Positions 9,801-63,932 of a stretch of DNA of 64,000 nucleotides are shown in pieces. The position numbers were made by a program, and so were the translations under genes. A model generated the notes under the pieces. The model made no database searches. It was not told the origin of the DNA and was given only the letters and a program-made list of their open reading frames with translations. The stretch is from Phallusia mammillata (lineage: Eukaryota). Positions within the stretch are counted from its first letter, which is position 1. The number at the start of each line of letters is the position of its first letter. The stretch lies in the NCBI GenBank assembly GCA_965637545.1, contig OZ281496.1:20770001-20834000 (forward strand). Reading direction: 5' to 3'.

Positions 9801-12800
9801 AGATTCGTGTTACCCCTAAGGACAGGGACGCCTTGCGATTTCTGTGGTGGCCAGGAGGGGATTGGACAAATCAACCAACAGCGCATCAAATGACTGTGCA
9901 CCTGTTCGGGGCGACTTCATCCCCTAGTTGCGCGAGTTTTTGCTTGAAGCAAACAGCCTTGGATTTTGGTCAAGATTTCAATGCACAAGCGTCTTCGGTC
10001 GTCAGAAGAAATTTTTACGTGGACGACTGCCTGACTTCGGTTGCATCTACAGTGGAGGGAATTCAAATGACCAAAGAGATTTCAGATTTGTTGTCACGTG
10101 GAGGATTCCACTTGACAAAATGGCTCAGTAATAACCAGAAGATTCTGTCAAAAATTCCTGAAGAAGAGAGGTCAAAGGCAGTGCGAAACAAAAGCTTGAG
10201 TGATGACGTCACAGAGAGAGTGCTTGGTGTCCACTGGAACGTGCACGAAGATACGTTTGGATTTAAGGTCAACCTTCCTGAAACGGCGAAGACTCGAAGA
10301 GGACTTCTTTCTGCATTGAGTTCACTGCACGACCCTCTTGGATTCGTTGCACCGTGCACGCTTGGAGCCAAATTATTACTCCAAGGTTTGTGCAAACGTG
10401 GAGTTGGCTGGGACGACTGCATTTTGGAATCGGAAGCAACACAATGGAGCGAATGGCTTGGGCGTTTACCGAAGCTTCATGACCTGTGTCTTCCTCGTTG
10501 TTTTAAGCCCGATGATTTCGGCGATGTGCAAAGTTGGGAGTTACACCACTTTGCAGATGCTTCCTCCGTGGCCTACGGAGCTGTGTGTTATCTGAGGATA
10601 GTCGACGTCGGTTTGCGTGTTCACTGCGTGTTTCTTGTTGGCAAGTGTCGACTAGCGCCGCTGAAAACAGTGTCAATTCCAAGACTGGAACTGACGGCGG
10701 CAGTTCTATCCGTGAAGCTAGATGAAATGATGCGACGAGAGCTTGGCTTGCCAGTGCATCGGTCTGTGTTCTGGACAGACTCCACTGCCGTCCTACAGAG
10801 CATCAGGAATTCGAAGAAGAGATTCCCTACGTTCGTTGCTAATCGAATTGCAAAGATTGAAAGGCAAAGCGATCCTTTAAGCTGGAGACATGTTCCTTCA
10901 AAGCTCAATCCGGCAGACGAGGCGTCACGTGGATTGACGTCAGAAGCGTTAGTGACGTCTGGCCGCTGGTTGCGCGGTCCGCAGTTTTTGTTGGAATCTG
11001 AGGATCACTGGCCTGTGAGTCCGATTGTTTTACCCGACTTGCCTGCTGAGTTCAGTCCCGTAAAAAAGCAGGAAGTCTCCATACATATGGTCGTAGAGAG
11101 GCAGTCCATAGTTGAGAGGATCATCCATCGGTACTCTTCGTTGCATCATTTGAAAAAGAGTATCGCCTGGCTGCTTCGATATAAGAAGTTTTTACTGTCG
11201 CGTGTTCGCGGTAACAAGGCTGTGGTGGAGAATCGTGGATCATTATCTGTTGAAGAATTAAATGCTGCCGAACTGGAGTTGATTAAATATGTGCAGCGAA
11301 AGCATTTCAGCCCTGAGCTTGCTGCGTTGGAGAAGGGATCTCTTTCCAAGACCTCTGTGAAACGTCACATGTTCAAACTAAATCCAATGGTTGTTAACTC
11401 CGTGCTTCGAGTTGGTGGTCGACTAGAAAAGGCTTTCATTCCGTACGATGCCAAACATCCGATTCTTCTACCACATTCGTGTCATTTTACTGACTTGGTT
11501 ATCGAGAGACATCATCGTCTTGTCGGACATTCTGGGATGGGCCACACTTGGTCGTCGCTGCGCCAAAGGTTTTGGATACTTAAAGGTGGAGTAGCCGTAC
11601 GCCGAGTGATTGGGAATTGCCTGTTCTGCAAGAGAAGAAATGCTTCCGCTGGAGTACAGAGGATGGCAGACCTTCCTTCAGCAAGACTGCATCCGGACGA
11701 GCCCCCGTTTTCACACGTAGGGGTGGATTATTTCGGTCCCTTTCCAGTTAAGCAGGGACGGAGCATCGTGAAACGGTATGGAGCAGTGTTTACCTGCCTT
11801 TCAATTCGAGCTGTCCATATCGAAGTTGCCCACAGCCTATCTACAGACTCGTTCATCGACGCGCTTCGTCGCTTCATTGGTCGGCGTGGGAATCCTGTAA
11901 ATATATATTCCGACAATGGGACGAACTTTGTCGGTGCAGAACGGATACTGAGAGAATCACTGCAGTCTTGGAACCAAGTTCACATTGAGGAGTACCTGAA
12001 ACAAAGCGGAATTCGTTGGTCGTTCAATCCCCCGACAGCCAGTCATATGGGAGGTGCGTGGGACGAATGGTGCGCTCCATCCGGCGAATTCTGACGTCTC
12101 TGATGACACAGCAAGTTGTTTCCGACGAAACATTGTCAACGCTTTTTGTTGAGGTTGAGTCAATACTCAACTCGCGTCCTCTTGTTCCTGTCACCTTTGA
12201 TCCCCGAGATGATGAACCGATCACACCCAATCATCTCCTGCTCATGAGATGCAACTCGAATTTGCCTCCTGGCTTGTTCGACAAAAAGGACTGTTACGTG
12301 CGGCGCCGTTGGGCGCAAGTGCAGTACTTGGCGAATCAATTTTGGATCCGCTGGGTTCGCGAATATCTACCGAACATCATTTCCAGGCAGAAGTGGTTCC
12401 AGAAGAGGAGAGATCTCCAGATCAACGATGTGGTTCTCGTCGTGGATGATTCACAGCCACGCTCCAAGTGGTTGATGGGTCGCGTTGCGGATACATTTCC
12501 CGATAAAACGGGAACTGTACGCTCGGTGCTTGTGCAAACGCGATACAATCGTGTCAAACGACCGATTGCAAAACTTTGCTTGATTGTCGCCGCTGAAAGT
12601 GATGTTTAGTGTGCTGTTTTGTTTATTGAATTTCGTTGAACGTTCGATGTTTGTTTGTGTGTGAAATGTATTTACCCGGGTCATACATTTAGGTGGGGGT
12701 ATGTTACATCTCCACGTTCAGTTACGCATGATTAACTTGTCTCATTATTCCACTGCTATGACGTTACAATCGCCATGTGCGTAACAGTAAAATTAGAAGG

Positions 12801-15800
12801 CCTTTGTCTGTATGTTGCAATGATTAGTTCATTTTACTGTACAACGTGGTCGAGTAAGGTGATTTATTACTGCATTAAGTAAATTCGTTTGTGTTGCATT
12901 TTTAGAGACGAATAAGGCTAAATTAAATATTGTGACGACTGACTAATTAATCTTCAAGTGAAGGCTGTTTACCGTGATTGTCGGTGAGTGTTTAATTCGA
13001 TTTGTGACCTAAATTAATTCATGGCTTTATGTGTGACTTATGGCATGCTGTATTTTCCTATAGTGATTGCAGCGATTGTTTCATCGTCTTGCAACTGTTG
13101 ATACGTGTACTGTACCTGTTGACCTGTGTCGCAAAATAGTTGGTAAGTTAGTCATTGGCATTTTTGTGCGTTGACATATGTCAATGTGTTTCGTTTTCTT
13201 GTTTAGAAAACCGTTCCCGTACCCGTTCCCGTTTCGTTCTCAACCCTGTTTCTGTCCGTTCCTGATTGTGTACGACGTTGTGGTTGTTGCCGCTGTTGTC
13301 GCTGTGGATTATTACACGTGATTCGGGAAGTGTGATTTGTGTGGGAAAGGGCGGGGCGTGTTTCAACGTGACAAACCCCTTTGTGAGGCTCAGCCTTGCA
13401 GGTCGGCCGTTCAGAGTCTACACTCACCAAGAATATTTAACACCGACTCTATTGAGTTTTGAAACCACTCTGACGGAAGCTGGAGTAAACCACGTGTTCG
13501 TGACGTCAATACGTGTTGTGTTTATTGGATTCGTGATGTTTATAGAAGTCATGCACCGGTCGCTCTTAAGTTTGGCAAGTTCAGTCGTTGCTAGTAGACC
13601 ACCTAACAGTGGCCATGTATAAATAGACACACCTTGTGAAGTGGTACGATGCTGTAAAATGACAGGAAAATGTGTACAAAAATACGACATTTTATACTAC
13701 TGTTCTATGGTGGTATATACTTAACCAATGCATGTATACTTAAACAAGTTAGTCTTTGTATTTGTGCAGTTAAGGTAAAAACAACAGATCACAATAAATG
13801 AAGGCTTAAATGGCACCTTAACCGGTTTCCATAAACGTTTTTGTGTACTCGTCTTTTCACATCCAGTGTATCATCATATACAACCACACATAGACGAGGC
13901 CGAAATAATTTTTGTAAACTACATTGAAGGCCTTTAAATTTAAAACTAGAACGACATTTTTAAAACAATCCGGGTCAGACGTGTTGCATTTGTAAACAGA
14001 AGCGTCTCAGACCTTTTCGACATTGCCACCTTCGACGGAACGTAACGTCTAACTCTAAAGTTTTTACCTCTGAAGCCAACATAGAACGTAATTTACAAAT
14101 TAAAAAACATTATAAAGGCATAATGTTTTTGTAAAAAATGATGTAAGCATGAGTATTTTTAGGTTAACTTCTAACGCCCTAATTTTTTACTGTTTGACAC
14201 TGCTTCGTACCAATCTTAATCGAGCTGCTCTTTATCTCTATGAGTCACTGCAGTGCTTTGAAATCATAGGGCCGATTGCTCGTCACTAGGACTAACGGTA
14301 ATCTGACTATTTTACATTTTGTGTATTTGTGAGCCTTTTAGGCCACGTGTCTTTTTTATCGCAGGGACCGCTTCGCTTTAAAATTTAATTATAAATTAAT
14401 TTTTTCAGGCGATAGAGATTCTGAGCAAAAATCCTAAAGGATATTTTCTGCTTGTCGAAGGAGGATTGCTTGATAAAGCTCACCATCAGGGATTGGCAAG
14501 ATATGCTTTACAGGAGTTTATCGAAGTCGACAACGCCATCGAGGTCTGTATTAACTCGATAATAATTGAATAAACCGGGGAACGGTCCGGCGCGCCTGAC
14601 CTTTATACCGACGTAAAAAAAAATCTTGATCGGGATTCGTCCCCGGAAGCGTCCTGGGTTCGAACCCCGGGAAAAAAGGATGCTGACGGTTGGGTCATTT
14701 GGGTTGCGTTTGCTTTTATAATAACAATAAAACCTACTTATAAACTTAGTTTCTAACAATAAATTAAATTATTTACCCTATCCGCAGCCTCACTGTCGAT
14801 TTTAAAAACTGTGCTCTTTGCGCCATTTAACGGTTGTAGCAAACGTTTGTCTGCTGTGACTTCTTATGTTAGTGGATCAGAGTTGCAAGTCGGGCCGGGC
14901 TTTTCGGGCCGGGTTCGGGTTCGGGTTCGGGCCGGGTTCGGGATTAGGTATTTGTCAAAAAACGGGCTCAAAACGGGCCTGACTTTACGTTCCGTTTCCG
15001 CCATTTTTAGTAACAATTCTCTGGCTTTGCCCTAATGCCCACCCGACTATAAAACGTAATGTTTACCCCATTGTCAACGATTGTTCATTGTGTTTGTCTT
15101 CTTATTTTTTTTCTTTCTCATACTTTGTTGCAAGGTTTTCGTGGATAGGCCTGTCAATCAAAATTTCGGGCCCAAACGGGCTTCTCAAAAACGTTTGGGG
15201 TTCGGGCCGGGCTTCGGGCTCAGATTTCGGGCCCGCTTGCAACTCTGTAGTGGATATACCTTTTTCGACAGGTTGCACGTGCTATGACTTCAGAGGAAGA
15301 TACTTTGTTTTTGGCTACGGCTGACCACGGTCACATGTTTACATTTGGTGGTGGGGCAGTAAGGGGAAATCCTGTTATGGGTGAGTGTTCGGAATATAAA
15401 GCGTTAGAAAAAAAAGATTTGTTACCCTTAACAATATCGACGTATATTAAGCTTTCTTGTGTGTTAATAGGCCTTGCCTCAAGTCAAAGACATCCCACAA
15501 AAGCGCTCGACCTCCGATATTTTACTTCGATTCTCTACGGAACTGGACCGGGATTCTCGATTTATTCTAAAACCATTCCTGTTCGAAAATCTATAAAGCC
15601 ATGGGAAATATGTAAGTATTTACATTTATCGCATGATTTTGCGAAAGTCCTTGTCAATATGAACCCATACGTTTGTAGGCCCAGCGCACATGGATTTTTG
15701 TAGTATTCAACCAAACAAAGTGGATGATGTGGTTGGCCAAAATTGGCGTAAACATTTACTTTTTAATTAACATATTTCAAGGAGGTTTTAGGCTTAGTCA

Positions 15801-16913
15801 CAATATACTTTTTTGATACGCCAGTTCAGTAATGCACACAAATTAGTTACCACTTTACTTGTATGATGCGAATAAACAATATCCCCATATAGATGTTCTG
15901 GTTGCTCAAAAAGTTATGACGTTTATAGATTCAAAGTCGTTTCGTCCACAAAGTGCGATTCCGCTTAATGCTGGCACGCATAGTGCAGAAGACGTCGTGG
16001 TGTACGCCAGTGGTCCAATGTCCCATCTCATACACGGAGTCAACGAACAGTCCTATATTGCTCACGTGATGTTCTACGCCGCCTGTCTTGGTAAGATTTA
16101 TCACGTATGCACCAAGTAGACCCAGTCTTTGGCCACGATTGAGTAGCAAATCAAATCCCTGACGAGTCCAAGACGTCACGTTCCGTTTTCACTGGTACGC
16201 TAAAAAATGGCGTGTGTACTCTACGTGTACTCTAATCGGCAACAAACCTTTCCTTTTATATTCATTCACACTTTACAACCTTATTCAAATAAAATTGAAT
16301 TAAACTTAAAAAGATGAAATAAAGTCTAAACAACCCCAAGTTTTACACCAAAAGCGAACACACGCTTTTGAGGCAATACTTGTCCAGCTCGGTATTCTAT
16401 AATGTTTTATTTTAACAAGAGATTTTTAGAGAGCTTGATTGCAGCAAAATGCGCCCGCCATTTTTTTCAAATAAAACAATGGTAATTTGCACCCGGTGGA
16501 AGCGCGACGCGATAAAATTGGAACTAGAATACAAAAGAATAGCGTCTGCAACAATAGATGGGACGCACAAAAACCATATTAACGAGATGACAGAATGTTG
16601 TCACGCGGCGATCAATAACATACATTTTGCTAAGTTTTTTCATCGGTTGATTTTTTTTGAAATGTGTTTCGATAGCATTACAGTTTGACAAAACAGCGAT
16701 CGTCGATGAGCATGTTGCCTGTCTGGGAGTCATACACTGTTTGCTCTTTGATTCTCAGTAATATTATTTAAATTTTTAGGGGAGGAATACAAGCAATATG
16801 CGCACTGCCAAAATCAAAGTTCATTATCCGAAAAGCAAATGATGGAAAGCAAAATCACCACCGAAATCGAAGAAGATGGTTTCGAACCAGAAGCTGAAAC
16901 TGAAGACATTTAA
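822..16913 (+). CDS. ALP: Alkaline phosphatase (animal type), 12 coding exons, signal peptide, no GPI signal
   Basis: Exons 822-879, 1594-1848, 3161-3319, 4151-4229, 4626-4719, 4850-4995, 5300-5450, 14409-14543, 15272-15380, 15471-15611, 15929-16090, 16780-16913, all GT-AG and phase-compatible. Motifs: [23 protein letters not shown] (catalytic Ser), [56 protein letters not shown]. Read-through of the 16091 donor instead stops at 16119. Confidence 0.93.
6045..6765 (+). repeat. 5' LTR of BEL/Pao #1
   Basis: Direct repeat of 12702-13422 (offset 6657); starts TGTTACA, ends TACA. Confidence 0.97.
6875..12609 (+). CDS. gag-pol: BEL/Pao gag-pol polyprotein (Gag with three Cys-His knuckles, protease, RT, RNase H, integrase), frameshifted at about 12063
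   Basis: ORF 6875-12094 continues in ORF 12016-12609. [13 protein letters not shown] / [14 protein letters not shown] / C..C..HHTLLH; AFLDIGS; [25 protein letters not shown]; [23 protein letters not shown]; [15 protein letters not shown]; the expected GGAWERMVR is broken by a 1-nt deletion. Confidence 0.95.
12702..13422 (+). repeat. 3' LTR of BEL/Pao #1
   Basis: Follows the PPT, matches the 5' LTR, followed by TSD CTCAC. Confidence 0.97.
14878..15247. mobile_element. Non-autonomous hAT element (MITE) with GGGTTC/GGGCC subterminal repeats
   Basis: TIR CAGAGTTGCAAG...CTTGCAACTCTG, 8-bp TSD TAGTGGAT on both sides; ends 24 nt upstream of the AP exon starting at 15272. Confidence 0.9.
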
Positions 16914-17561: not shown

Positions 17562-20500
17562 TTATCGACAAGTAGCACCGAAACGACGTCCGTATCCATA
17601 TCCTGGTTTCAGGCAAGTACAACTGACGGATCCAGCACATCTTTCCTTCCACATTCCACGATATCCGTAGGGTTTCGGGCAAAACGCCACACAACCTCCG
17701 GTACAAACTGGGGCATCGTATTGTCGGCCTTGACCGCAATTACACGTCGATTTTTCTGCGTTGTTGCCTTGGCAACGGCCGCTGCTGCATTGGGCTTTGC
17801 ACGCGTCTAAAGATATATGACGAAAGGTTAGATTTCGATAGAATTGATGTTACATGAACGCAATATTTTAAAATTGTCATGAATATTTTTAATAGCGTGT
17901 TCTAACTGTTAACCGCTTTTTTTCGAGTTTGTTTAACTTTCATTAAAATCTCTTTCGTAAAATTTGAGCGCTACAAAAATATTACGACAAAAAATAGAAA
18001 AGAATATTACCACAAAGTACACAAACTATTGTATTAAACTATTTCAATCAGTGTCAAATGGATCTGTCAATATATCGAGTTTAGTGTTTCACAAGAAAAT
18101 TGTTTTTGCAAATACTAAATAAGTTTGGAATTTTGTACCTACAAAAAAACTTATCACTTACTCTTCGGTGGTTTAACATTAGCTGGGAACTTCATTGGGA
18201 CATTTCCAGCTGCTTGGTAATGTGCAACAATATATATTTCGTTTCCACGCTTCTTTAAACCACATCCTACTTTGCTGCTGCCTTTCCACACGAGCTGCGT
18301 AAAATGACCTGTGAAAAAAAGTTTCTAATAAGTAAACAAAACAATTGTCAAATACGGGGGGTAAACACATACGTGTAGATGCAAAACTATCTTTTGTTTT
18401 GCTGTTGAACACAATTTTATTTAAAAAAATCGAAATAATTTTTCATGAAATCACGGTAAATAGGATAGGATCAGTAACATTGTGAACGTTATTAAAAAAC
18501 TTAAATATTTCAATTACTTGTTTTGTCGTTGTAGCCTGGGTTCTCGTGATCGTAGTTGAGTCCTTCCGCATACCAACCACTAACAGCTTGGTATATATTG
18601 AACTGGTTGTACCGGTTCATTTGCCAAGCAATATTTTCACCAACGTCTTGCTCTCGATCGATACCTGAACATAAAACAAGAGCATTATTAACTAAACATA
18701 GGTAACTAAAATATAGGGGTTACATTTGGCAAAAAGGAATTTTTAATTTCATACCGGTTATCACATCATTAAATGTCTGCTTTATATGGTTTTAACCAAT
18801 TGTTGAATTGAATTATCAGGTGTTTTATTGTTCTAACGCTAAATGAATAAAAATAAAAATGATTTCACAAACAAATAGGCAGAACAAGTGAAAATAATAA
18901 TTGCCGTTACTTTTCGAGAACCTAAAATGAGAACTACTAGATATATTAGGTTGATAGAGAAGTCATACAAAAATCTACATCACTTACCAACTAACGAGGG
19001 TTTAACTGACGCTGCACCATACATTCCATCATTCGCCATCTTGATTGCATACGAGTATGCGCTTGTTGCTAAAATGTCGTCGTATTCGAGCTCTGGGACA
19101 TTGTGAAGGCATCTGTAGTAGTTGTGTGCAGCCAAGCACTGCTCCTGCAAGCTGGCTTGCATCTGGATCTTGTATTGTTTGCATTCACGTTTGACCTCAT
19201 ACTGCAAAGTGTTTTCGGGGCCGAATTTCTTCTTTGTAATGCTTGTTCCGTTGTCCGTATCATTTCCGTAGAGTTCACTCAAGATTGCATAAACGTCCTC
19301 TGCGAATAAAGGAATTTGTTTTATATTTGTTGATTAAGCTTTTATCGCACAGTGCACGTATGAAACACGTTATGTCTCATATCAAAATTAAAAGACATCG
19401 GACCGCACAAATTTTAACGACAATGGATGAACATAAATTTTGCATCGGACAAGCCCTAAAACGTCTATTTCAAAACAGTCTGGCAATTACGGCACACACA
19501 TGTAAATTATAGTACGCTAGGTCTATTGACAGCGTCATAACGAATCAGCCGGTCATCAAGCATGTCAAAGCACAGGCTAGAAAAATCTAGCCGGCGATGG
19601 GATTCGAACCCACGACAGGAGCCTTTCCGGGACTCGCGCTCTACCAAATGAGCTACATATATGTAGCACATATGAGCTGGTCAGTGGTGAGCTGGTTTAG
19701 TTGTAAGAATTGCAAGCACCGTTGTGGCATTTTTACTATGGCATTCGGTAAATCCAAATTTACAAAACAAATCAAAAGTGGGGTGTAGCTTACCGGGTGA
19801 ATATGTGCTGATTGGTTCATCGGTGGGAGTTGGGGTCGGTTTGTAGCCTTGGGGTGGCGCCGGAGGTGCGGATATGAGGGACGGGAGTTTAGGTGGTGCT
19901 CTACATTTCTTGCATAGCCCACAGCTAAGTTTGCAGTTGGACTGCATCCAGTCGGTGTAGTCAGGATATGTGCAATACCTCATTTCTGTAGCAAGTCTTG
20001 GGCAGTCGTCACGTAGATCCTCACAGTCTGTATGTAAAGTCAATGTTAAAAAATGCTCAGTTTAAAATTACTATTAGATTTTGATTAAATGTGCCTAGTT
20101 TTGAGTTGGACTGGGCGATAGAATTTCTCTTATTAACGGTTTAACTTCCGTGGTTGCATTGTTATTGCAAACAGAACCCCTTTAATGCCGAAATAGAATC
20201 ACAAATCAAACAGAAGAGTGTATGACTTTTCTAAAACAATATTCCTACCGTTAGAGCAAGGTGGTGCTTGGTATACGGGTGGAGCTTTGCAGGGCCGGCA
20301 TTCTTCACATGTTACCCTACAATGTTTGCGCACCACAAGACCATGACTGCTCGCTTCCGAACATTTGCCCTTCAGAGCAAACTGGCACCATTGTGGTGAT
20401 TTGTCGAAACAAGTTTTCTCTGCAAAAATGATATTTTTTGTTAATGCAACAAACCGAAATATGTTAAATTTTCATAGATGAGGAATTGATTTTTTCGGAC

Positions 20501-21532
20501 TTTCGGCGGAGGGCACAGACGCTACTTTATCGTATCTTAGCAATAATTTATTTGTATTTGTTTGCTTATTAGTGGAAAACGAACGTGAAAATGTTAGCTT
20601 TAGTGGCTATTAAGTTGATACTTTTTCTATTGGAATATGTTTCTGCTATTGGAGAAATCGTACAATATCAGCATAAATCTAGGTAGATTTGTACAATATA
20701 TTGTACACTAACCATTCAGGCCCAATTTTCAACAAAGTTTTGTTCACACATTTTTAGGCAAAAATATCGCCGGCAAATAATTTCTCGTATGGTCCTTTGT
20801 TCGTTTCTCCTTACCTGATTCGCATTTTTTCTGTTCATACGTGCACGGTGTACAGGAGCCACATGTCTTGGGGCAAGCTCGCTTTGCTGCAAGATTTACG
20901 CCGAGTTTTGGTGAGTTGCATTTTGTAACTTGCAGCATGCAAAAGAGTGTGTTCATGTCCTTGCAGTCTTCATCTGAAAAATTAAACAATTTTTAGCACT
21001 ATTCAAAATAATATATTTAATTTTTTGTATCTCAAACTGAAACTGCTGTTAATTAAAAGTATTTCAACTGTCACTTACCACAACTTGGTCCGTAAAAACT
21101 ACCCAACGGTGAGGATGGAAAACCAGTACCCAAAGATGATGGGTAACCAGTACCCAACGAAGAAGGGTAACCAGTACCCAACGAAGAAGGGTAACCAGTA
21201 CCCAACGAAGAAGGGTAACCAGTACCCAACGAAGAGGGGAAACCAGACCCAGGCGATCCTGTGCCTAAAGATGATGGGTAACCCGTACCTAACGAAGAAG
21301 GGTAACCTGTACCCAATGACGAGGGGAATCCAGTGCCAGGCGAAGGAAGACCAGATCCTGTGGACGAGGGACCCAAATTAGGGTACCCTATCCCTGTAGT
21401 CGATGGTAACCCAACACCCGCCCCACTGGGGTCTGGAGGATTGAATGGGGAAGGTAAACCTGAAGGATCGAACGGATAGAGAAGGTTGGCCTCTGCAATA
21501 AGCACGGCAGACAGAAGGACGAGGTATTTCAT
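17562..21532 (-). CDS. Gene A: secreted ShKx3-CAP-Cys12 protein with N-terminal GYPSSLGT repeats
   Basis: Exons (minus) 21532-21079, 20973-20815, 20419-20249, 20027-19794, 19299-18988, 18664-18518, 18308-18162, 17806-17562. Signal MKYLVLLSAVLIAEA; ShK ends CPKTCGSC, CRVTCEEC, CKLSCGLC; CAP motifs AHNYYRCLH, VGENIAW, HFTQLVW, VAHYQAAGN. Confidence 0.9.
19589..19658 (-). pseudogene. 5'-truncated tRNA-like sequence or tRNA-derived SINE head in an intron of gene A
   Basis: Minus strand reads TAGCTCATTTGGTAGAGCGC...GTGGGTTCGAATCCCATCGCCGGCT: A box, B box and T arm present, 5' acceptor strand missing, followed by TTTTT. Confidence 0.6.
21110..21340 (-). repeat. Coding 24-bp tandem repeat, (GYPSSLGT)n, about 9 units including degenerate ones
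   Basis: Plus strand unit AAGAAGGGTAACCAGTACCCAACG repeated; in frame within the first coding exon of gene A. Confidence 0.9.
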
Positions 21533-26159: not shown

Positions 26160-29100
26160 ATGCTGCGTATAATAATTTTAACGGCAATTGCAGTTGTAGT
26201 ACTGGGAGAACCCCCAGTAAAAGTCGACCGATCAGGAAGATATGTTACAACTGCATGTTGTAAGTATTTCTAAAACTATTTTACAACTTTATCGGAAAAT
26301 ATTTACAAAATGTATACTTGTGCAAAAAAATTTATGCAAAACAAAAAAGGCCAAGGCCAACTACGAGAACTTTTTAACCTATATTGTACATAAAAATCAT
26401 AGTACGCCAGACCTATTGAACAAAGAGTGTATCCTATACCTGGCATTTTACAAAACAGTTAAACAAAAATTTTATGCAGCGGAACATTGTGAAGACGAAA
26501 AGGGGAGATGCGGTATACCTGGAATGAAAGCGTTTTGCGACCACCGTGATTACAAAGCTCTAGTGCGAGAGAAATGTCCACGTTTGTGTGGAACCTGCAC
26601 ACCTTGTAGCGCTACCAAGATGAGGTGTTCTCTTGGTAAGTAAAATCAAGGAATTAAATGACCTAAAAGATAAAAACTGACCTGAATACTACTATGGTAC
26701 AAAAGAAAATTTATATTACCCACTGAATTGCTCAGGGCCAATGACTTAAAAGTTAATATTTCTTGGCCACATTTTCTTTTACATGTATTTCATACTGTTA
26801 TTAGAACACAATTTCAGTGTTCGCTTGGGCAGTGGTCGGCAAACGAAGACCGTTACCGGGCCGAACATTTTTTCAGGTTCAGTGCATTAAAACATTTTGC
26901 CCATGTATCCCTGGGATGATAAACTAATTTGGGCGTTTTCATTGCTGAATATTTGTTGTTTTGTTGGCCGGTCCTCGATAAAATTTCAGTTTCGAAAACG
27001 CTACGCAGTAAAACAAGGTTGCCGACCGCTGCGCTAAAGATTGTTTTGGGTCAGAAGTTGTATACATGGTGTATTTTTGGATGAACCTTAACATTCTTGG
27101 ATCGTAGAAAGTAACAAACCCTCGTTAAACCTTTGCTTAATTTATGTCCAAAGATTGTAAAGATGAAAACAAGTGGTGCCCTACCATGTACAAGTTCTAC
27201 TGCAATCACCCAGCGTACGGACTGAACATCAGGAAGCAGTGCAAGAAGACGTGTGCTGTTTGCAAATCCTGTGAGCCTGAAAAAGTACCAAGATGTGATC
27301 CAGGTAACATAAACAATCGCAAAACAAACAAACAATTGGATGAAAAAATTTACAAATACATTTCGATTTCCTTTTTTTATCCTGACAAACCAAACAACGC
27401 TAACCAAAACTTCTGCGTTATCTTTGATCAGTTAAAACAACGTAAAGCTGTAATTTTAGGTTGTCGTGATTTTGACCCGGCTTGCAAGTACTGGGATACG
27501 AAAATGAATTATTGCGAGGGTTCGATCTACTCCAAGTGGATGAAGAATAGATGTCCTTTGAGTTGTGGCGAGTGTAGATATTGTGCTTTGCCCACAATTC
27601 CAGCAACCACAAGAAGACCTGTATTCACTAGACCACAGGCCACGACAAAATACATCAGAACTACACCAAAACGTAAGAAGTTGAATTTATGTGAAAGATT
27701 TTGCACATTTTCAAACCTCGTAGTCTTCCATTACTATGAATTGTTAAACAACGTACATAACAAGCCGTCGCCTGTCGTACTTTTCACAAAAAAGCTATCG
27801 CCTTTTATATCCATTTAAATCCCATGTAGATGCAATTTAGGGATAAATATTATCCTCAGTGAACAGTTTACTACTATAAATCGCTGATTTCAGCTTAAAC
27901 CACAATGCCAAAAATTTTACGCTAAAAATTTACCACACCCATGACTTAACGGTAATATCTATCATCCAGCAATCACACGTCCCACCAAGCCAACGCCGAA
28001 TAAGTGTGAACGTGGACGAACCGTTGGAGTTTCTGTAGCTGATCAATGTCTTAACACTCACAACTATTACCGATGTCTTCACGGAGCCCAACCTCTGAGG
28101 TACGACCACGGACTCGAAAGAAGTGCTCAACGTTATGCCAACAGACTACCCACAATGTCTGAACTGCAAGCATCAAGGATTGGTGAGGACTCTTTTTAAC
28201 ATATTGCGTTTACTCTATTTTTGTGCCACGTTAATGTAATGTCGTTCCAAACTTTCAACCCAAATTCACAGAAATAAGGTACGTAACCTAAAACAGCAGA
28301 GACAAAATAGCGTAGAGATTATCAAGTAATCACGAATAATGTGCAGGGATATAGCTGACACCCTTCACAAATATGCGTTGGGACTTACTTTTACCAACGA
28401 CCATTAAGAGTTGCGCAACATTTTGGAGCGTCTAACAGTAATGTATACAATGTCTTTGCTTCAAATTTAAACAATAACGATACAACAACAAGTCATACAC
28501 GAACAAATAAGCATACATCATTTCTTATTTTACAAACTGTCCTACACCTGGCACCTATAGTTTTATATCGTTTCGTTTTTTAAAATTTATTCTTTACTTT
28601 TTTCAGGGGTTGATCGTGGTGACAACGTTGGTGAAAACATGGCCTGGACATTCGACCGTAGCAGGAAACTCGATGTAAATCAGGCGATTAGTCAATGGTA
28701 CGCTGGAGGCCTAAACTACGACTACGATGATCAGGGCTACACACATGAATCTGGTAAATGACAGATCAACACTGAATTTTGTATTTCCGAAGCTTTTGAT
28801 CACTAAAGCTAAATTATAAGCTGTACTAATTTGAAGTCCTAATTAAAAGTGATAAACTTATGGAAACTTTTCAACAACGTTTAGTTTAAATTGAACAATT
28901 ACTTTATGTAAAACGAGTTGAAACTGTTGGATAGCACAGTAAACGTAAATGATGATTTTAAAACATAATATAGCCTAGAAGTTAATTTACCATGACCTCC
29001 ATGACCAATATAGAAGACATATAAGCGGGAAACGAAACCAGAATTCATAACGCAGCAATTAAATGTAAATGTTTCTTTTGGCAGAGCACTTTACACAAGT

Positions 29101-29797
29101 TATATGGCGCGAGACCGAAACTATTGGATGTGCAGTGAAGAAGTACAAGGACGAAACTTACATTGTCGCCCACTACAGGACTATGGGAAATATTGACAAT
29201 GACTATATGTACAACGTGAGAAAACCCAAAGGTAAAAGATTAATTATTTTATGAATGATGTTACAGCTTAATAGAGAAGTGAATGAATCGGAATTAACTG
29301 CATGTAATGAGCACACTGTAAGCTTCAAAAAGTCTAAAGGAGTAAACGATTTTTCAATGACATATATTTGTCTCGAGTAATTGGCAACTTTAGTAGGCTA
29401 TCTTATTATAATACAACTTTTAACAATACAAAAAAATGATTAAAAATTATTGTCAAATACCGAAACAAGCCATACAAAATCACAATGCCAAGAAACAAAA
29501 GCGAATGTGAGGATTACATGTAGTTCGCGTAAATTAATGAAACCATTGTTTACAGACACATGCAAGTCGAAATGCCCTAGGGGAAGTTGTCAAGGTAACC
29601 AACCTCGCTTTGACGATGACTGCGATTGTGACCGATCAGGAAATCCAATCTGTTACGGACTCTGTGTGGTGCATTGTGAACAGCCTCAAGACTTTTATGA
29701 TGAATGGGTAGCCAGTTGTGAGGGCGCCATCTCGTGTACATGTAGCTTGCCAAGCGATTGGGCGCGTGGTGCCCCCAAAGGAGCAATGTGCCGATAA
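26160..29797 (+). CDS. Gene B: secreted ShKx3-CAP-Cys12 protein
   Basis: Exons 26160-26259, 26480-26635, 27154-27303, 27460-27672, 27970-28182, 28607-28753, 29085-29231, 29556-29797. Signal MLRIIILTAIAVVVLG; CPRLCGTC, CKKTCAVC, CPLSCGEC; THNYYRCLH, VGENMAW, HFTQVIW. TATA-like TATAAAA near 25888, AATAAA near 30038. Confidence 0.92.
26830..27031. mobile_element. hAT-type MITE in gene B intron 2
   Basis: TIR CAGTGGTCGGCAA...TTGCCGACCGCTG; flanks CGCTTGGG / CGCTAAAG match only partly (old TSD). Confidence 0.65.
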
Positions 29798-32543: not shown

Positions 32544-32616
32544 AGGCACCACTGGGATTCGAACCCAGGATCTCCTGTTTACTAGACAGGCGCTGTAACC
32601 GCTTAGCCATGGCGCC
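32544..32616 (-). tRNA. trnT: tRNA-Thr (anticodon AGT)
   Basis: GGCGCCATGGCTAAGCGGTTACAGCGCCTGTCTAGTAAACAGGAGATCCTGGGTTCGAATCCCAGTGGTGCCT folds into a full cloverleaf, anticodon loop CTAGTAA, downstream TTTTT Pol III terminator at 32536-32540. Confidence 0.95.
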
Positions 32617-34549: not shown

Positions 34550-37165
34550 ATGTTGAAGTTTTTTGCATTAGTCTGTTTGTTTGGGCTTGTGAATTGTTAT
34601 AAGTTTGGAAAGTTCGGGAAAACTTTCCCCAAAGTTCGTGCATGGAAGAATGACAATAATGCTGCATGCGGTGAGTTTATGATTTGATCTTTTTTTGCTA
34701 AATTGGCATGCATTACGTATTGTTTAAGTATAAGTCAGCAAAATTTACATGCTATAGTTTCATTCACTAACGAATGACGTGGGCTTACAGCGCGTCCTAA
34801 GTTGGTACCTGTTTTTTTGTAATGCATATTTGCAGAAACGAAACAAATCGTAAAAGTCGTTTGTATTCACTGAAAATAAACTTTAAATTTGGAAATATCC
34901 ACAAACCAGTTTTATTCGCAATTTTGTACATTCTGTACATTTTCTTCCAACAGAACCCCAGTGCAAAAACCACGCCACAATCTGCAAAGTTCCGGGAATC
35001 ATAAAACTTTGCAAAACTCAACAACTGGTAAAAGTAATGGAGAAAAACTGCCCTCTATTGTGTGGTTTCTGCAAACCATGTTCCAGGGGTTGCATAGGTA
35101 GGTTTTTAACGCTAGCAGCTGCAAGTGGGCTAATTTTTTCATTTGACTTTTTTGAAAATGCACACAATTGGGGCTATGTAGGATAGGGTTGTAAAAAAGT
35201 AACACTAAAACAAAAATCTGATCTTAGATACCAAGGCTTATAGTTTGCTAGTACTAATTTCAGTATACTCAAGCACTTCAGGCAAAGAACACTATGAAAA
35301 GGCAAATAAACTTACAGCTATCTTCATGTAGATTAGTCTTGTTGCATTAAAGGCAAATTAGCAATTGTCATACCTATTGTGCAGATCCCAAATGTAAAGA
35401 CCAGATCTTATTCTGTCCTGCCATGGCAACAAAAAAGAATTGTAATACGGATCCTAATCTAAGACAGCTTTGCCGAAAGTCATGTGGAACTTGTCCAGCA
35501 TGTCCTAAAACACAACAACAAAAATTGAAATGCTCCAAAGGTATGTCATTTACACAAATAAAAGTATCTTTACCCATAATACATCTTTCATCAAATTGAT
35601 TGTTTTGTGCCACAGATTGTATTGATTCATCAACAAAATGCAAACAATATGCTTCTATTCGTGAAATGTGTGGTGATGATTCTCCACACTATGATTTTAT
35701 GCAAAAACACTGCAAACTCAGTTGCAAGCTATGTAGAAAATGTAACTTAACCATGGCTCGTGGCAAACAAATAAAAACTGCAAAGCTAAACAGACCTACA
35801 ACAAGAAAACAAGGTAATGATCCTACTTGTTATGAAGTAAATAACAACAAAGCTTAAAGTAATCAAGTTGATTAAGTTTCAAATTAGATGATTTAGTTTT
35901 ATTCAACTTTTTTACACTTTAAAGAATGCAGGAGAGATGTTGCATCTGAATCAACAGTAGAAGCACAGTGTCTAGGAGCACACAATTTTTTCAGATGTTT
36001 GCATGGAAGTCCACCACTGAATTATGACTTAAAATTGGCGAACCAAGCAAGACAATATGCAATTCATTTGGCTGAAAGTGGAAAGCCAGGTGATAAAGGG
36101 ATGGAACATTCCAAAAAAGGTGAAGTTACCCCTTGTTTGGACACTGTGCAACAGCATTCAGCAAAAATGTATTCTACGATTTAATACAAAATTAAGAGCA
36201 TAACTTTTTAGTGACAGCAAGATATGTACAAATTTACAAAAAAACAAACAATATTGTTTCCAGGAGTGGATCGTGGAAATGATGTTGGGGAAAATTTGGC
36301 ATGGAGATGGGCAGTTAACAACAGATATAATGTCAGCCAAGCAATTTCTGATTGGTACACAGGGGAAATGCAATATGACTTCGATAAACCTGGATTTTCA
36401 AACACAACAGGTAATTTTGAGGCATTCAAGTCACTTAAAATGTAGTTGACTATTTTACTGAGGTTTTAGAAACCACATAAATGTGCGTACTAAAAGCATA
36501 TTTTTGTATTTTTGCATTGTTTTAGCTTATTGGTTTTGACAGGTAAATCACTACAACTAATACGTCTAACAATTTGGGTACAAACCTAATTAGGAATCTT
36601 ATGCAACATGTAAGTTTTTATTTATATTGCTTTTTCTGCAGGGCATTTCACTCAGCTGGTATGGAAAGATACACAATCAGTTGGATGTGCTATTGCAAGA
36701 GTTGGCCATGAGGTCTATGTGGTAGCCCAATACAGCAAAAAAGGAAACTCTCCAAATGGATTTGCACACAATGTTCAGAGATTGAAATCAGGTATTTTTT
36801 CTTTCAATGATTTAACAAGTTCTAAACTAAGTTTTGACACTTAGAATATTTATAAGCATTAATACCCAATTAGCCTTGTTAACCAAAATCTCCATTTCTT
36901 TTTAAATAACTTGGTTTGTTTAGATGTGTGTGAGGCAAAATGTAAAGCTGGAACATGTCAAGGTCAAGATGCCAACACCTCAACTTGCAAGTGCACTGGG
37001 CCACAAAACAATACAGTTCCAGAATGCACCAAACGGTGTGTTGCATATTGTCCCAAGCCTATGAATCATATTGGATCCTGGTTGGAAAGATGTGAAGGCA
37101 GTACCTCGTGCAAATGCATTTCATCCAAAAAGCAAAAACTTTGGCCAGGAGCCCAGTGCATTTAA
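34550..37165 (+). CDS. Gene C: secreted ShKx3-CAP-Cys12 protein (basic, CpG-depleted copy)
   Basis: Exons 34550-34670, 34954-35097, 35385-35540, 35616-35813, 35925-36119, 36264-36410, 36642-36791, 36924-37165. Signal MLKFFALVCLFGLVNC; CPLLCGFC, CRKSCGTC, CKLSCKLC; AHNFFRCLH, MEHS, VGENLAW, GHFTQLVW. TATATAAG near 34468, AATAAA near 37238. Confidence 0.92.
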
Positions 37166-51957: not shown

Positions 51958-54900
51958 ATGAAGATCTTCATCTGCCTGGCGACTGCCTGTCTCCAGTTTT
52001 TCGTTCTGTCCAAAGCTTGTGGTAAGCAAAATGTGTATAATTAACTAGTGCTAACCATGACCATAATTTAGCCAAAAGCGTACACTTTGCCTTAAATTTA
52101 TTGTACGTGAAAGAAATCCTTGAAAGTGTGAAATTCATGTTAAAAATTTGCTCCAGTTAAATTAAAATTCATCTTGAAATACAGACCCAGATTGCAAGGA
52201 CAAAGTCACCAACTGTGATTTGGATGTCATTACCCAAAACTGTCAAAATCCCTTCATCGGTTACTTTGTCAGAACCAGGTGTCCTGCTGCATGTAAAGTG
52301 TGTACGCCATGTGCACCTGTCCAACCCAGATCTTGTACACCAGGTATGAAACATCAAAGAGTTGGACTATTGTATATTTTCAAAGAATAAAACAAGGAGA
52401 TAAAAAACAAATTTTGTACATCAAAACCATATTGATAAATGTTTCGACCTATAAGATCTCAATACTGCAGCTGGCCGTATATGCGCTAGTGTTGCCAAAA
52501 CAAATTAAAATCTGAAGTAAATGTAACTGTGGTCTGAAATGGCAGTGTAAGTTAGTTTTTCCGAAAGCTGCCCAGATGGCCATTATGACTGAAAAGGTTA
52601 AATTTGAGATAACTTAAAACGACCCTTGCAGAAAACGACCCTTGTCAAGACAAGTCTAAAAACTGTTACCTGTTTGCCCCCACTCACTGTCAATCTTCCA
52701 ATCCCATCACAAAAGCATTGGTTAAAAGGAATTGTAAAAAATCTTGTCGACTTTGCACACCCTGTGAATCTCTTCTTGAACCACCACCTTGTGACCCAGG
52801 TAAGAAAAAGTTGCTAAACTATTTATAACTTACCATTTTAAATATTCATTCCGACGATTATTTAATTTTTTTGAAAGCGTTGTTGATTATTTATAATTTA
52901 AATCCGCAGAAATATACCAAAGGAACTTATTTTCAATTCAAAGTAAAAACACTAAATTTTTGTTTTACATGACAAATTTCACTATGAATTTCCAAATAAG
53001 AAAAGATTTACAACAAGCCTATAATGAACATGTATACTTGCCTTACTTAAAATTTACTTCCATTAAAATCATTTTTGTGTCTTTCTAGAATGCGCCGACA
53101 AACTGACCGAGTGTCCACCATGGTCTGAAGGAGGTTATTGCAAGAATCCTTTGCACGCGAAATTTATGAAGAAAAACTGCCCACTTAGTTGTGGTGTATG
53201 TACTCAATGTCTACTCGTAAGACCCCCTAAAGTTCCTCAGCCAGAAATACGACCACCACAACCTGTCACAACCACGGAACCAGTGGTTATCGTTACCACG
53301 GAAGAGCCAGCACCAGAAACCACCATGCAATCAGTCGTAACTACTGCTTCAGCACCACAAACAACCGGACGATCAGTAAGAACCACGGCGCCAAAGCCAG
53401 AAACAACACCACAAATGACCGGTAAGTAATCTAAAAAATAATATAACGACTATACGTCTTTTTTTGCTAAACCAGAATTTAAACTAGAATCTCCCAGTTC
53501 GTTGCTTTGTGCATGAAGACTACAAAGAACCTAATGCTTATTGATTTAAAATTAATAAAACATCAAATCATTCACCCTTATGAGTTCAAGAAATTTTATC
53601 AGTTCCGGCATTGTCGGTATCTTAATAAGATATATATCTTGAACTTGATGTTTAATACAGTTGAGAATTCTCGGAATTTATGATTTTTACATGAAAACTA
53701 TAATAGCAATTTTCACTTCAGGTTCCTCACCTAAATGCATCAGAGGCGAAGCGAGAGAAGCCCACGTTTCTACTCAATGTCTGAACGCTCACAACTACTA
53801 TCGGTGCCTGCACGGTTCCAAGCCATTGAAATACGACTACAGACTCCAAAAAAGTGCTGAGAATTACGCCAAGAAGCTCGCACAGATGGGTTCCGTCACA
53901 AACCTCGAATCCTCTATAATCGGTAAAGAAGCCGGGATGTCTACTATACTTTATTTAAATTACCTGAGTGCAACATTCGCAAAAATTTCTTATGTATATC
54001 GCTTTGGAATGGCAACATTTTATACCTACGCAAGCGTTGGAACAAAATATTATGTTTTTGCAGTCAACCATTATTGCTAACTTTTAATTTTGCATTTTGT
54101 TTCATGAAGGACTTGACCGTGCTGATGTAATTGGCGAGAACCTGGCCGCTTCAACTGATAAAGATTATTCAATTAGTCAGGCAATTACTGCGTGGTACGC
54201 CGAAAGTATGACATACAACTACGGAATAGAAGAGGTAGAAGAAGCTTCAGGTACGTTTCTCCCTACAACTGATATTTTTTTTCAAAAATTTAGATTTCTC
54301 AAAAAGAGTCAAAATTTGTAGCTTACTTGTAAAAGTAAAAAAAATCGTTGATCTCTTAATTCTTGTCGTTTCAAAATGATCGTTTTCTTCGCAGCTCATT
54401 TCACCCAGATGATTTGGAACGAAACCAAAAGTATCGGTTGTGCCCTACGCAAAGTAAACAACAAGATCTTCGCAGTTGTTCATTACGAAGTAGGCGGAAA
54501 TGAACCGGGTTTCTTTATTGACAACGTCGGCATCCCCAATGAAGGTAAATATAATTCCTAATGGTATAATTAGACATCTCAACATAAGGTATGTAAAAGT
54601 GTTTGAAACACTATAGGTAATCGTTACGCATTCAAGCTTTCAGAAAATATATTTGAAGGTACAGAAAAAAGTATTTGATTATTTGAGGATATTAACATAT
54701 TTTGCACTTTATTGTTGTATCAGGGGGTTAGCAAATGTCTAATAGTTTCATTTCATACATTAAGGCCTAAATTTAAATTGACTAAAAATGCACGATAAGT
54801 TTAAATAGGTGTTCTGCTTAAAAGGTTTTCGGGTTGAATTTTGGATGTTAAAAATGTTAAAGCTTTTTTAAACCACGCAACTATATTTTTGCAGATGTTT

Positions 54901-55142
54901 GTCAAATTGATTGCAATAATGGATACTGCCAGGGAAATGAAGGCAAACATTCCTGCCAATGCGATTCCCGAGAAGGAGGTTACGACGCCCCTATGTGCGC
55001 TGAACGATGCGTGGTACAATGTCCAAAACCACAGGGGCACACTGGACAGTGGATGAGCTCATGTGAAGGAAGGTTTCTTTGTACTTGTTCTAAGAAACCA
55101 ATCCCAGAGCGTAATATTCATGCTGGTGCTTTTTGTCGCTAA
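51958..55142 (+). CDS. Gene D: secreted ShKx3-CAP-Cys12 protein with a long mucin-like Pro/Thr linker
   Basis: Exons 51958-52021, 52185-52343, 52632-52799, 53089-53421, 53722-53922, 54110-54250, 54395-54544, 54895-55142. Signal MKIFICLATACLQFFVLSKA; CPAACKVC, CKKSCRLC, CPLSCGVC; AHNYYRCLH, IGENLAA, HFTQMIW. TATAAAAG near 51695. Confidence 0.92.
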
Positions 55143-61798: not shown

Positions 61799-63932
61799 TT
61801 ATCTGCAGATGGCGCCGGGCAAGATGCCAGTTCTGGGATCCACTTTGCTGTTGCAGGTGCACACAACTGATCCAGAACAGGTGGTTTCCCAGTCACCCTC
61901 GTGGTCTCGGGGTCTGGGACACAATGCAATACATGGTCCTCCACATCTTGGGGAGTCGGTTCGATCATTGCATTGACATTTGGATACTTGGGAGTTTCCC
62001 TGTTCACCCTGACAAGCCCCGTTCAAACACAAAGCATCGCAGCGACCTAAAAAATTGAATAATTAAAAAAATTAAAATATTAAATTTTTTTGGTATGCTT
62101 TGAGGGTAAACATTTGTTGGCCATAAACATTTAGCTAGTTAATTGGCCGATAAAAGATAAATTTGCACGAGGCCACAAACATCAATTACAATTACACGTT
62201 CCAGAACTTATCTGTGGGTAAATGTAAAACTATAAGTAATGCTCTTTGATATGTTACCTTCATGGGGCATTGGAATGTTGTCCATGAAAAAGCCAGGCAC
62301 GTTTCCCATTTCTCGGTAGTGAGCAACAGCGTAAAAGTTGTCGCCTACTTTGCGAATCGCACAACCAACACGGGTGGTGTCTTTCCACATCATCTGGGTG
62401 AATTGCTCTGCAAGATCAAAGTGGTTAATGTGGTGTCTAGTAAAATTAACAAAGAATGGAAGAGATTGTAATAGTAACAAAATCAGTCCATAAATGTCGT
62501 GGAATATAAATATTTCGCCTAAAAGCATCTTCAGTTCCTTATTCGAGTAGAAAACTGATCATATTTATTAGACTGGAGATGCGTATTAATTAGACTGGTA
62601 TGATAAACTGGAGTTTTCTATTTACCTGTTTCAGGTGTGGCTTGCTCGTTGTTGTAATCGTACAGCATACCCTCGGAATACCATTCGGTAACAGCTTGAC
62701 CTAAAGAGTAACGGTTGTTCTGGGCATGTTTCATGGCCAAGTTTTCTCCGACGTTGCTACCTCGGTCCAAGCCTAAAATACAGGAGAAATCAAAGAAACA
62801 GAACTAAAGGAAACATTTTTACAAGAGCTTATTTAAGGCGGCTTTAAACACAATACATTTTGTTGAATAAGATATAACTTGAAATATTTACTGATAGTAG
62901 ATGATTTTAGATATCCGATGCTAGCAAGCTTGTTGGCATAAAGTTGAGCGCTTCGTTGCAGAGAACTGTCGTACTGCAGTTTTCCAACTCCGTGCAGACA
63001 ACGATAATAGTTGTGTGCGTTCAAACATTGCTGAGCCTGAGACACGCCCTGGAGTTCAGGTTCTTCACAAGTTTGCAGAACATCTATAAAATCACACAAA
63101 GAGGATGGTTCAGTTTACGAAAAAACAACAACAAATGGTCACATTCTATTACCCCATGCATTTGTGTATAAAAGTAAACATTTGCTCGTCAAAACTAAGT
63201 GTCTATAGTTGCGTTTAAACAAGAACCAGATGAAAAATCAGCTTACTGTCTGGTCGTTTTGTCTCGGGACGTCTGGTAGTTGCTGGTCGTCGAGTAGCAG
63301 CTGGTCTTCTGGTTGCAGCTGGTCTTCTGGTTGCTGCTGGTCGTTGAGTGGCTGGCAATGGTTTTCTGGTTGCTGGAAGGTATGCTGGTGATTTGTGAAC
63401 AGGTGGTTGTCCGCATGATTTACAGATGCCACAAGATTTTTTACAGCTTCCGCTCATGTATTCGTAATGAATGGAGTGCACACCACAATGACCTTCTCCT
63501 TTCCAGTAGTGACAATGTTCTCCTTCATCTTTGCAATCTACATTGAAGAATAAATGAGAGTTTGCGATCATTTTTTCATTTTGCATACATTGACTAAACC
63601 ACGTGTGCTTACTATTCTCCTATGTTACGAGAGGCAATATACATTAAAACATATTGTCAAGCCAGAAAACCAAATCATTTCTGCTACTTTTGGTGATACT
63701 ACGTAAGACTCTATCAGCGTTTGTGTAGCGCCTGCTTTAATTTGCAAAGATCAGTAACTAATACCTTTGTCACATTCGTTTTTGATAGGCACCGGCAAAG
63801 AGCAAGGGGCACACACATGACAAGATTTCGGGCAAAGATTTCTGATGTAACCGCTCCAGTCGTTTTCATGGCAAAACCTTGGCGCGAAAAACGCCGGGCA
63901 GAGTTTGTTATGGTCAACACAGGTGTCGTTTT
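61799..63932 (-). CDS. Gene E: ShK-CAP-Cys12 protein, 5' part outside the window
   Basis: Exons (minus) 63932-63765, 63537-63247, 63083-62892, 62772-62626, 62407-62258, 62046-61799. CPKSCHVC, CKKSCGIC, (PAATRR)n linker, AHNYYRCLH, VGENLAM, EQFTQMMW, C-terminal 12-Cys exon ending GAICR. Confidence 0.9.
63255..63375 (-). repeat. Coding 18-bp repeat (PAATRR)n in the gene E linker
   Basis: Plus strand (TGGTCTTCTGGTTGCAGC)-like units; translation PATQRPAATRRPAATRRPAATRRPATTRRP. Confidence 0.85.

What the first reader, a model, noticed from the sequence alone, without database searches (positions are those of the whole stretch)
17562..17806. Unrecognised 12-cysteine C-terminal module of about 80 aa, one exon, in all five paralogues
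Consensus from 17806-17562, 29556-29797, 36924-37165, 54895-55142 and 62046-61799: C-x3-C-x2-G-x-C-Q-G-x(6-9)-C-x-C-x(6-10)-P-x-C-x3-C-[VI]-x2-C-x2-P-x6-W-x3-C-x-G-x3-C-x-C-x(9-12)-G-A-x-C-[RI]-stop. All 12 Cys, CQG, W and the terminal GAxC are invariant while the loops vary. It does not match the spacing of ShK, the CRISP hinge, EGF, Kazal, WAP, TIL or TSP1 as I know them. It may be two related 6-Cys halves. Candidate new disulfide-rich domain.
Basis: partly seen in the sequence, partly recalled or inferred. Interest (0 to 1): 0.75.

Follow-up and report, generated by a model that had tools for sequence, protein, structure and literature searches.

The report
Sea squirt 12-cysteine beta domain
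Five neighbouring sea squirt genes end in the same 80-residue, 12-cysteine domain that no family library names; it is predicted to fold as a compact, disulfide-locked beta structure and likely serves as a tough binding head on secreted proteins.

The parts
17562..17806 (-). g1 exon 8: the 12-Cys module (80 aa plus stop)
   Evidence: splice joint 17806|18162 in contigs of 3 of 4 runs; AF2 model
18162..18308 (-). g1 exon 7: CAP domain, C-terminal third (HFTQLVW..GC)
   Evidence: Pfam PF00188 E 1.8e-4
18518..18664 (-). g1 exon 6: CAP domain, middle (GENIAW, WYAE)
   Evidence: whole CAP E 3.7e-18 in P0001; joints
18988..19299 (-). g1 exon 5: end of linker and first CAP helix (HNYYRCLH)
   Evidence: PF00188 E 3.8e-5
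19794..20027 (-). g1 exon 4: third ShK unit and Pro/Thr linker
   Evidence: PF01549 E 2.7e-9
20249..20419 (-). g1 exon 3: second ShK-like unit
   Evidence: PF01549 E 0.045, below cut-off; Cys spacing
20815..20973 (-). g1 exon 2: first ShK-like unit
   Evidence: PF01549 E 0.041, below cut-off; Cys spacing
21079..21532 (-). g1 exon 1: hydrophobic N-terminus (likely signal peptide) and Gly/Pro/Ser repeats
   Evidence: sequence; signal peptide judged by eye
26160..29797 (+). g2, 8 coding exons, 455 aa, same architecture
   Evidence: open model with GT-AG ends; not checked with reads
29556..29797 (+). g2 module exon
34550..37165 (+). g3, 8 coding exons, 450 aa; 1 difference from P0002 (Phallusia mammillata record)
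36924..37165 (+). g3 module exon
51958..55142 (+). g4, 8 coding exons, 487 aa
   Evidence: ShK and CAP hits on three exons; not checked with reads
54895..55142 (+). g4 module exon
61799..63932 (-). g5, six exons inside the window (5' part runs off the end)
   Evidence: not checked with reads
61799..62046 (-). g5 module exon

Best explanation
The module is a one-exon, 12-cysteine C-terminal domain of ascidian ShK(-CAP) proteins that is predicted to fold as an eight-strand all-beta unit, likely locked by six internal disulfides, and likely works as a protease-resistant binding head on a secreted protein. Shown: the exon, its splicing in g1, the architecture and the conserved residues. Shown in database gene models only: the module persists when CAP is absent. 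Predicted: the all-beta fold. Inferred: four beta-hairpins of three Cys each, stacked in pairs, with the Gly two residues after C3, C6 and C9 making the crossings; the fixed Cys/Gly/Pro/Trp scaffold holds three loops of variable length (after C3, C5 and C11) that would set the partner specificity of each paralogue. The whole protein would be a multivalent extracellular adaptor: ShK units and module at the two ends of a mucin-like stalk, with an optional lipid-binding CAP domain between them.
For: Last exon, phase 1, in 5 of 5 genes; spliced in 3 of 4 runs. One copy, at the C-terminus, in every stored protein it was found in. Three architectures among 13 non-window relatives: ShK-CAP-module or CAP fragment-module (8), ShK x3-linker-module without CAP (4), one fragment. 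AF2 on 17 sequences: pLDDT 88.4, pTM 0.74, strands 2-6, 9-13, 20-24, 31-35, 38-41, 55-58, 61-65, 75-79, no helix; half A alone, with 5 sequences, falls to pLDDT 65.7 and pTM 0.31. C-x-G after C3, C6, C9 in 15, 14 and 17 of 18. Spacers after C3, C5 and C11 vary (7-15, 6-11, 11-17) while the others are nearly fixed. Module net charge runs from -8 to +9, and non-Cys identity among the five paralogues is 29% against 44% for CAP. Total Cys is 40 in g1 and g2; g3 and g4 have 42, two of them in the hydrophobic N-terminus, so no free thiol is needed. CAP domains bind lipids without the full tetrad (PMC6193718, passages).
Against: No ligand, tissue or phenotype data were found. The drop in confidence for half A is confounded with alignment depth (5 against 17 sequences). 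Variable loops and charge also fit relaxed constraint on a purely structural domain. CAP-less forms rest on database gene models, not on reads checked here. The module tree is almost unresolved (1 of 15 inner branches supported), so the order of CAP loss or module gain is not shown. Hinge-like C1-C3 and the knottin/EGF-like Cys order point to derivation from known scaffolds.
Confidence: 0.45

Rival explanations
1. The module is a tandem pair of strongly diverged EGF-like units (C1-C3, C2-C4, C5-C6 in each half) acting as spacer or protein-binding repeats after CAP.
For: Each half has six Cys in the order C-x3-C...C...C-x-C...C, with G-x-C before C3 in 15 of 18 and G-A-x-C at the end in 18 of 18; this is the general EGF order (recalled). 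CAP proteins with EGF-like C-terminal units exist in molluscs (PMC6409789, section 2.2). Strands 9-13 and 20-24 could be the EGF major hairpin.
Against: No EGF-clan Pfam model hit any of 17 modules at E<=10. The recalled EGF_1 and EGF_2 signatures match 0 of 18. The C5-C6 loop varies from 6 to 11 and C11-C12 from 11 to 17 residues without the G-aromatic-x-G motif. Half B has a fixed 13-14 residue insert with P-x-P and Trp.
Confidence: 0.2
2. The module is a double cystine knot (PA1b/cyclotide-like spacing; I-IV, II-V, III-VI in each half), a bivalent defence or channel-binding head like the tandem knottins of spiders.
For: C1xxxC2 and C4xC5 occur in both halves and are the motifs that PMC11297342 (passages) names as shared by PA1b and cyclotides. 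Bivalent knottins encoded by one exon are known (PMC13172734, passages). The neighbours are ShK units.
Against: A generous recalled knottin spacing fits 1 of 36 halves: C3-C4 is too long in half A and C2-C3 in half B. The model has four strands per half. No processing site that would release the module was noticed, and no PDB sequence hit was found.
Confidence: 0.15
3. The module is an extended CRISP-type hinge or cap whose job is structural: it stabilises the C-terminus and packs on CAP, with no partner of its own.
For: With the full-length profile, alignments to BmVAL-1, Na-ASP-1, a snake CRISP (1rc9) and two natrin sequences run to positions 368-402, past C1 (361) and C2 (365), four of them past C3 (370); pseudecin and pseudechetoxin alignments end at C3 of P0014. 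The Atlas feature search gave a weak lead (0.77) to short nematode proteins, 24% with CAP.
Against: The hinge has two disulfides in about 20 residues (PMC7150914, passages); only three Cys can correspond and nine are extra. The closest solved CAP domains, Pry1 and GAPR-1, end before the module. Four relatives keep all 12 Cys without CAP. 17 of 22 chains stop at or before profile position 357.
Confidence: 0.12
4. The module is a carbohydrate-binding anchor that holds the protein on tunic cellulose or on mucus glycans through its invariant Trp and the aromatic residue four positions before it.
For: Trp is 18 of 18; His, Tyr or Phe lies four residues upstream in 15 of 18. Named relatives are all ascidian, animals with a cellulose tunic (own knowledge). 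A Pro/Thr linker next to a small disulfide-rich end domain is the layout of carbohydrate-binding modules (own knowledge).
Against: Only one invariant aromatic residue, which may be core; no carbohydrate-binding family passed a cut-off (WSC E 7.7 in 1 of 17). Six identifiers of the family were not found in the one supplement of a tunic proteome paper that was searched. No hit from stolidobranch ascidians or appendicularians was named, though they also make cellulose.
Confidence: 0.08

Closest known systems
CAP-ShKT proteins of molluscs (CreCAP-ShK types I and II, PMC6409789) and vertebrate CRISPs
   Same: Secreted CAP domain combined with ShK units and Cys-rich extensions; tandem gene duplication.
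   Different: Here the ShK units lie N-terminal to CAP, each with an extra flanking Cys pair; the CAP is closest to Pry1/GAPR-1 and lacks the full His/Glu tetrad in 5 of 5; the C-terminus is the 12-Cys module rather than hinge plus ShK/ICR.
CRISP / nematode ASP hinge
   Same: Position directly after CAP; C1-C3 fall where the hinge falls in profile alignments to 5 of 22 chains.
   Different: The first hinge Cys has no counterpart; nine further Cys follow; the module has its own exon and occurs without CAP.
EGF-like domain (tandem pair)
   Same: Six Cys per half with C-x-C, G-x-C3 and a Gly-rich approach to the last Cys; beta-rich, extracellular, phase-1 exon.
   Different: No Pfam EGF-clan hit (0 of 17), recalled signatures 0 of 18, variable C5-C6 loops, invariant P-x-P/Trp insert.
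PA1b / cyclotide-type cystine knots and bivalent ICK toxins
   Same: C1xxxC2 and C4xC5 in both halves; two six-Cys units in one exon.
   Different: Loop lengths outside the recalled knottin range in 35 of 36 halves; four predicted strands per half; part of a large modular protein.
Granulin hairpin stack; FN1/VWC/CFC modules (recalled, leads only)
   Same: 12 Cys and stacked hairpins (granulin); aromatic-Gly-Trp before a C-x-C strand (VWC, CFC).
   Different: No adjacent CC pairs as in granulin; Cys count and spacing differ from VWC and CFC; no Pfam hit to any of them.

Membership tests
EGF-like | Pfam EGF-clan profile match | tested here: not met
   0 of 17 modules at E<=10; HMMER filters drop most matches above E 0.1
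EGF-like | EGF_1 / EGF_2 signature around C4-C6 (patterns recalled) | tested here: not met
   0 of 18
EGF-like | Six Cys in the order C1..C2..C3..C4xC5..C6 | tested here: met
   both halves; C-x2-C in place of C4xC5 in the ShK x1-CAP subfamily
EGF-like | EGF fold | tested here: inconclusive
   searches are insensitive for small disulfide folds and no positive control could be run
EGF-like | Disulfides I-III, II-IV, V-VI | not testable with these tools
   model coordinates not returned
Inhibitor cystine knot (PA1b/cyclotide type) | C1xxxC2 and C4xC5 motifs (PMC11297342) | tested here: met
   both halves in 16 of 17 sequences for half A and 17 of 17 for half B
Inhibitor cystine knot (PA1b/cyclotide type) | Loop lengths within the knottin consensus (recalled) | tested here: not met
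   1 of 36 halves
Inhibitor cystine knot (PA1b/cyclotide type) | Knotted I-IV, II-V, III-VI topology | tested here: inconclusive
   fold searches neither show nor exclude it; pairing not observable
ShK domain | Profile match and helical C-x3-C-x2-C end | tested here: not met
   no PF01549 hit on the module; hhalign against the family's own ShK units, probability 0.3%; model has no helix
CRISP hinge | About 20 residues with two disulfides right after CAP (PMC7150914) | tested here: inconclusive
   position met and three Cys available; residue-level alignments to CRISPs were not displayed; a fourth Cys is missing
CS-alpha-beta defensin / scorpion-toxin fold | C-x3-C on a helix | tested here: not met
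   both C-x3-C segments are strands in the model; predicted, not solved
Kazal, WAP, TIL, TSP1, granulin, VWC | Pfam profile match | tested here: not met
   none among the 5 families listed for 17 modules at E<=10
CAP superfamily (host protein) | PF00188 above cut-off | tested here: met
   E 3.7e-18 and 1.8e-17 for P0001 and P0002
CRISP-like CAP cavity (host protein) | His-Glu-Glu-His tetrad (PMC7150914, PMC6193718) | tested here: not met
   complete in 0 of 5 paralogues, read by eye

The most novel reading that the evidence does not exclude
The module is a new small-protein fold: a 4+4 beta-sandwich of four hairpins, three Cys each, stapled by six disulfides, invented in the ascidian lineage from a CRISP-hinge-like start, and used as a variable-loop recognition scaffold by an expanding family of secreted defence or matrix proteins.
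Probability: 0.4. Interest if true: 0.65.

Novelty: new variant of a known kind. Interest (0 to 1): 0.47.

Why it matters
Small disulfide-rich folds are few and mostly old. An 80-residue all-beta scaffold with six predicted disulfides that tolerates large length and charge changes in three loops would add to that catalogue and could serve as an engineering scaffold. It also defines an unannotated ascidian family (ShK x3, with or without CAP, plus module) that has expanded in Phallusia, Ciona and Clavelina, all easy to test in Ciona. It does not by itself answer a long-standing question: lineage-restricted Cys-rich domains are common and its function is not shown.

Full report
Observation. The stretch 17806-17562 (-) is the last exon of a gene: AG acceptor, phase 1, 80 codons with 12 Cys, then TAA. 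All 12 Cys, CQG, the Trp and G-A-x-C are invariant in 5 of 5. A loose 12-Cys pattern, fitted to these modules and their relatives, occurs 5 times in the window and 0 times in 100 shuffles.

The genes. Exon models with GT-AG ends are open throughout: g1 (21532-17562, -, 622 aa), g2 (26160-29797), g3 (34550-37165), g4 (51958-55142) and g5 (63932-61799, -, cut by the window end). The four complete genes have eight coding exons and only phase-1 introns: a hydrophobic N-terminus (signal peptide by eye), three ShK-like units, a Pro/Thr-rich linker, a CAP domain over three exons, and the module. Of 11 exons scanned against Pfam, three pass the ShK cut-off, two g1 exons give sub-threshold ShK hits, and four pass the CAP cut-off. 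Contigs from the 4 runs laid (of 21 listed) bridge all seven g1 introns; the joint into the module exon is in 3 of 4 runs from three studies (the runs' RNA status is a guess, the intron-less joints are what is seen). The CAP domain's closest solved relatives are yeast Pry1 and human GAPR-1. The His-Glu-Glu-His tetrad (PMC7150914, passages) is complete in 0 of 5 paralogues, read by eye; such CAP domains can still bind sterols (PMC6193718, passages).

Relatives. A profile of the five modules against 1.84 billion representatives gave 14 hits at E<=0.001. Thirteen carry ascidian names: Phallusia mammillata (2, matching g1 and g3), Ciona intestinalis (3), C. savignyi (1), Clavelina lepadiformis (7); one ENA fragment is unnamed. 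These span Phlebobranchia and Aplousobranchia. All are 'uncharacterized', 'ShKT/SCP domain-containing', 'ectin-like' or 'GLIPR1-like'. For counts I used 18 modules: the five here and 13 others, leaving out P0001 and P0002 as duplicates and replacing P0005, P0010 and P0014 by cluster mates; P0010 lacks the twelfth Cys, which its mate P0029 has. Of the 13, eight have CAP, four have three ShK units and a linker but no CAP, and one is a fragment. The module is always single and C-terminal. Its survival without CAP marks it as an autonomous domain, with the caveat that those four are database gene models.

Library tests. No Pfam family passed its cut-off in 17 of 17 modules, and none of the five listed at E<=10 is a Cys-rich extracellular family apart from WSC at E 7.7 in one member. 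NCBIfam and PDB sequences gave nothing. Profile comparison with the family's own ShK units gave probability 0.3%.

How the fold is probably built (inference). Strand limits pair symmetrically as hairpins 2-6/9-13, 20-24/31-35, 38-41/55-58 and 61-65/75-79, each holding three Cys. A Gly stands two residues after C3, C6 and C9 in 15, 14 and 17 of 18 modules. In a flat meander the Cys of successive hairpins would face opposite sides and could not pair, so I infer hairpins stacked in pairs with disulfides between them, which agrees with the sequential LptA alignment. Coordinates were not returned, so this and the disulfide pairing are unverified. Three pairings remain open: knot-like I-IV/II-V/III-VI, I-III/II-V/IV-VI, and EGF-like I-III/II-IV/V-VI.

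The 'two halves' share Cys order, but hhalign finds only the C-x-C strand (probability 3.9%). A Cys-anchored column test gives p=0.044 from 19 columns, driven by one Gly, and the three-Cys register scores better than the six-Cys register (-0.12 against -0.25). The claim of no resemblance is too strong. With a full-length profile, 5 of 22 PDB chains align past the CAP end into C1-C3, natrin ending at residue 180 within its 163-182 hinge, while 17 stop before the module (PMC7150914); I saw end coordinates, not residue pairs. Both halves carry C1xxxC2 and C4xC5, which PMC11297342 (passages) gives for PA1b and cyclotides, though a recalled knottin spacing fits only 1 of 36 halves and recalled EGF signatures 0 of 18.

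Function. The scaffold is fixed while three spacers vary (7-15, 6-11, 11-17 residues), net charge runs from -8 to +9, and non-Cys identity among the five paralogues is 29% against 44% in CAP. With a free C-terminal position, a mucin-like stalk and repeated duplication, the most likely role is a stable recognition head whose partner differs between paralogues (confidence 0.45). Rivals are a diverged EGF pair (0.2), a double knottin (0.15), a structural hinge or cap (0.12) and a glycan anchor (0.08). No expression, ligand or phenotype evidence was found.

Literature. Ten searches found no description of the module or family; six identifiers gave 0 papers. Seen: passages of PMC11297342, PMC6193718, PMC7150914, PMC11209345, PMC13172734; passages and section 2.2 of PMC6409789 (molluscan CAP-ShK proteins with EGF-like and unrecognised 6- or 8-Cys arrays); term searches without relevant result in PMC12724666, PMC3390340, PMC10810493, 10.1101/2023.05.02.539060, and in PMC7401272 with its one supplement. 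Subscription journals, ANISEED expression data and supplements of other ascidian proteome papers were not seen and may mention these genes.

Verdict. A real, spliced, apparently undescribed ascidian disulfide-rich domain on a known kind of secreted ShK/CAP protein. It fails the sequence tests for EGF, knottin, ShK and the other families named, and may be a new fold (probability about 0.4). Interest 0.47.

Noticed in passing
window 21562 (g1 exon 1 acceptor), 27186 and 35378: Contigs in two runs join the acceptor of g1 exon 1 to minus-strand sequence inside g2 exon 3, and one run to sequence at the start of g3 exon 3; both have GT donors. g1 seems to have alternative upstream exons running antisense through g2 and g3, up to 14 kb away.
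   Followed up: partly
window 19794-20973 and equivalents in g2-g5: Each ShK unit has an extra flanking Cys pair (eight Cys per unit), the first of which lies at the end of the previous exon; probably a fourth disulfide.
   Followed up: partly
window 21079-21400 (-): g1 has an N-terminal run of eight-residue Gly/Tyr/Pro/Ser/Thr repeats before the ShK units; relatives P0008 and P0019 have Ser/Gly/Gln-rich stretches there.
   Followed up: no
window 6045-13417: BEL/Pao retrotransposon (1740-aa ORF 6872-12091) with direct repeats, 300 nt of them 100% identical at spacing 6657, so likely recent; it lies between exons that look like an alkaline phosphatase gene.
   Followed up: partly
window 39406-45271 (+): Second BEL/Pao element (1850-aa ORF) between g3 and g4.
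   Followed up: partly
window 1530-16116 (+): Alkaline phosphatase gene; last exon hits PF00245 at E 3.6e-15.
   Followed up: partly
window 30648-31484 (-): CENP-B / Tc5 helix-turn-helix ORF of 279 aa between g2 and g3; no DDE domain was listed.
   Followed up: partly
window 32542-32616 (-) and about 19500-19660: tRNA-Thr(AGT); a tRNA-like stretch in g1 intron 4 is not called by ARAGORN but is covered by contigs in 2 of 4 runs, possibly a SINE.
   Followed up: no
P0023 / P0014 (Clavelina) and P0043 (Ciona): A divergent subfamily (one ShK, CAP, module) has C-x2-C in place of C4-x-C5 and a five-residue C2-C3 spacer; the only well-supported clade in the module tree.
   Followed up: partly
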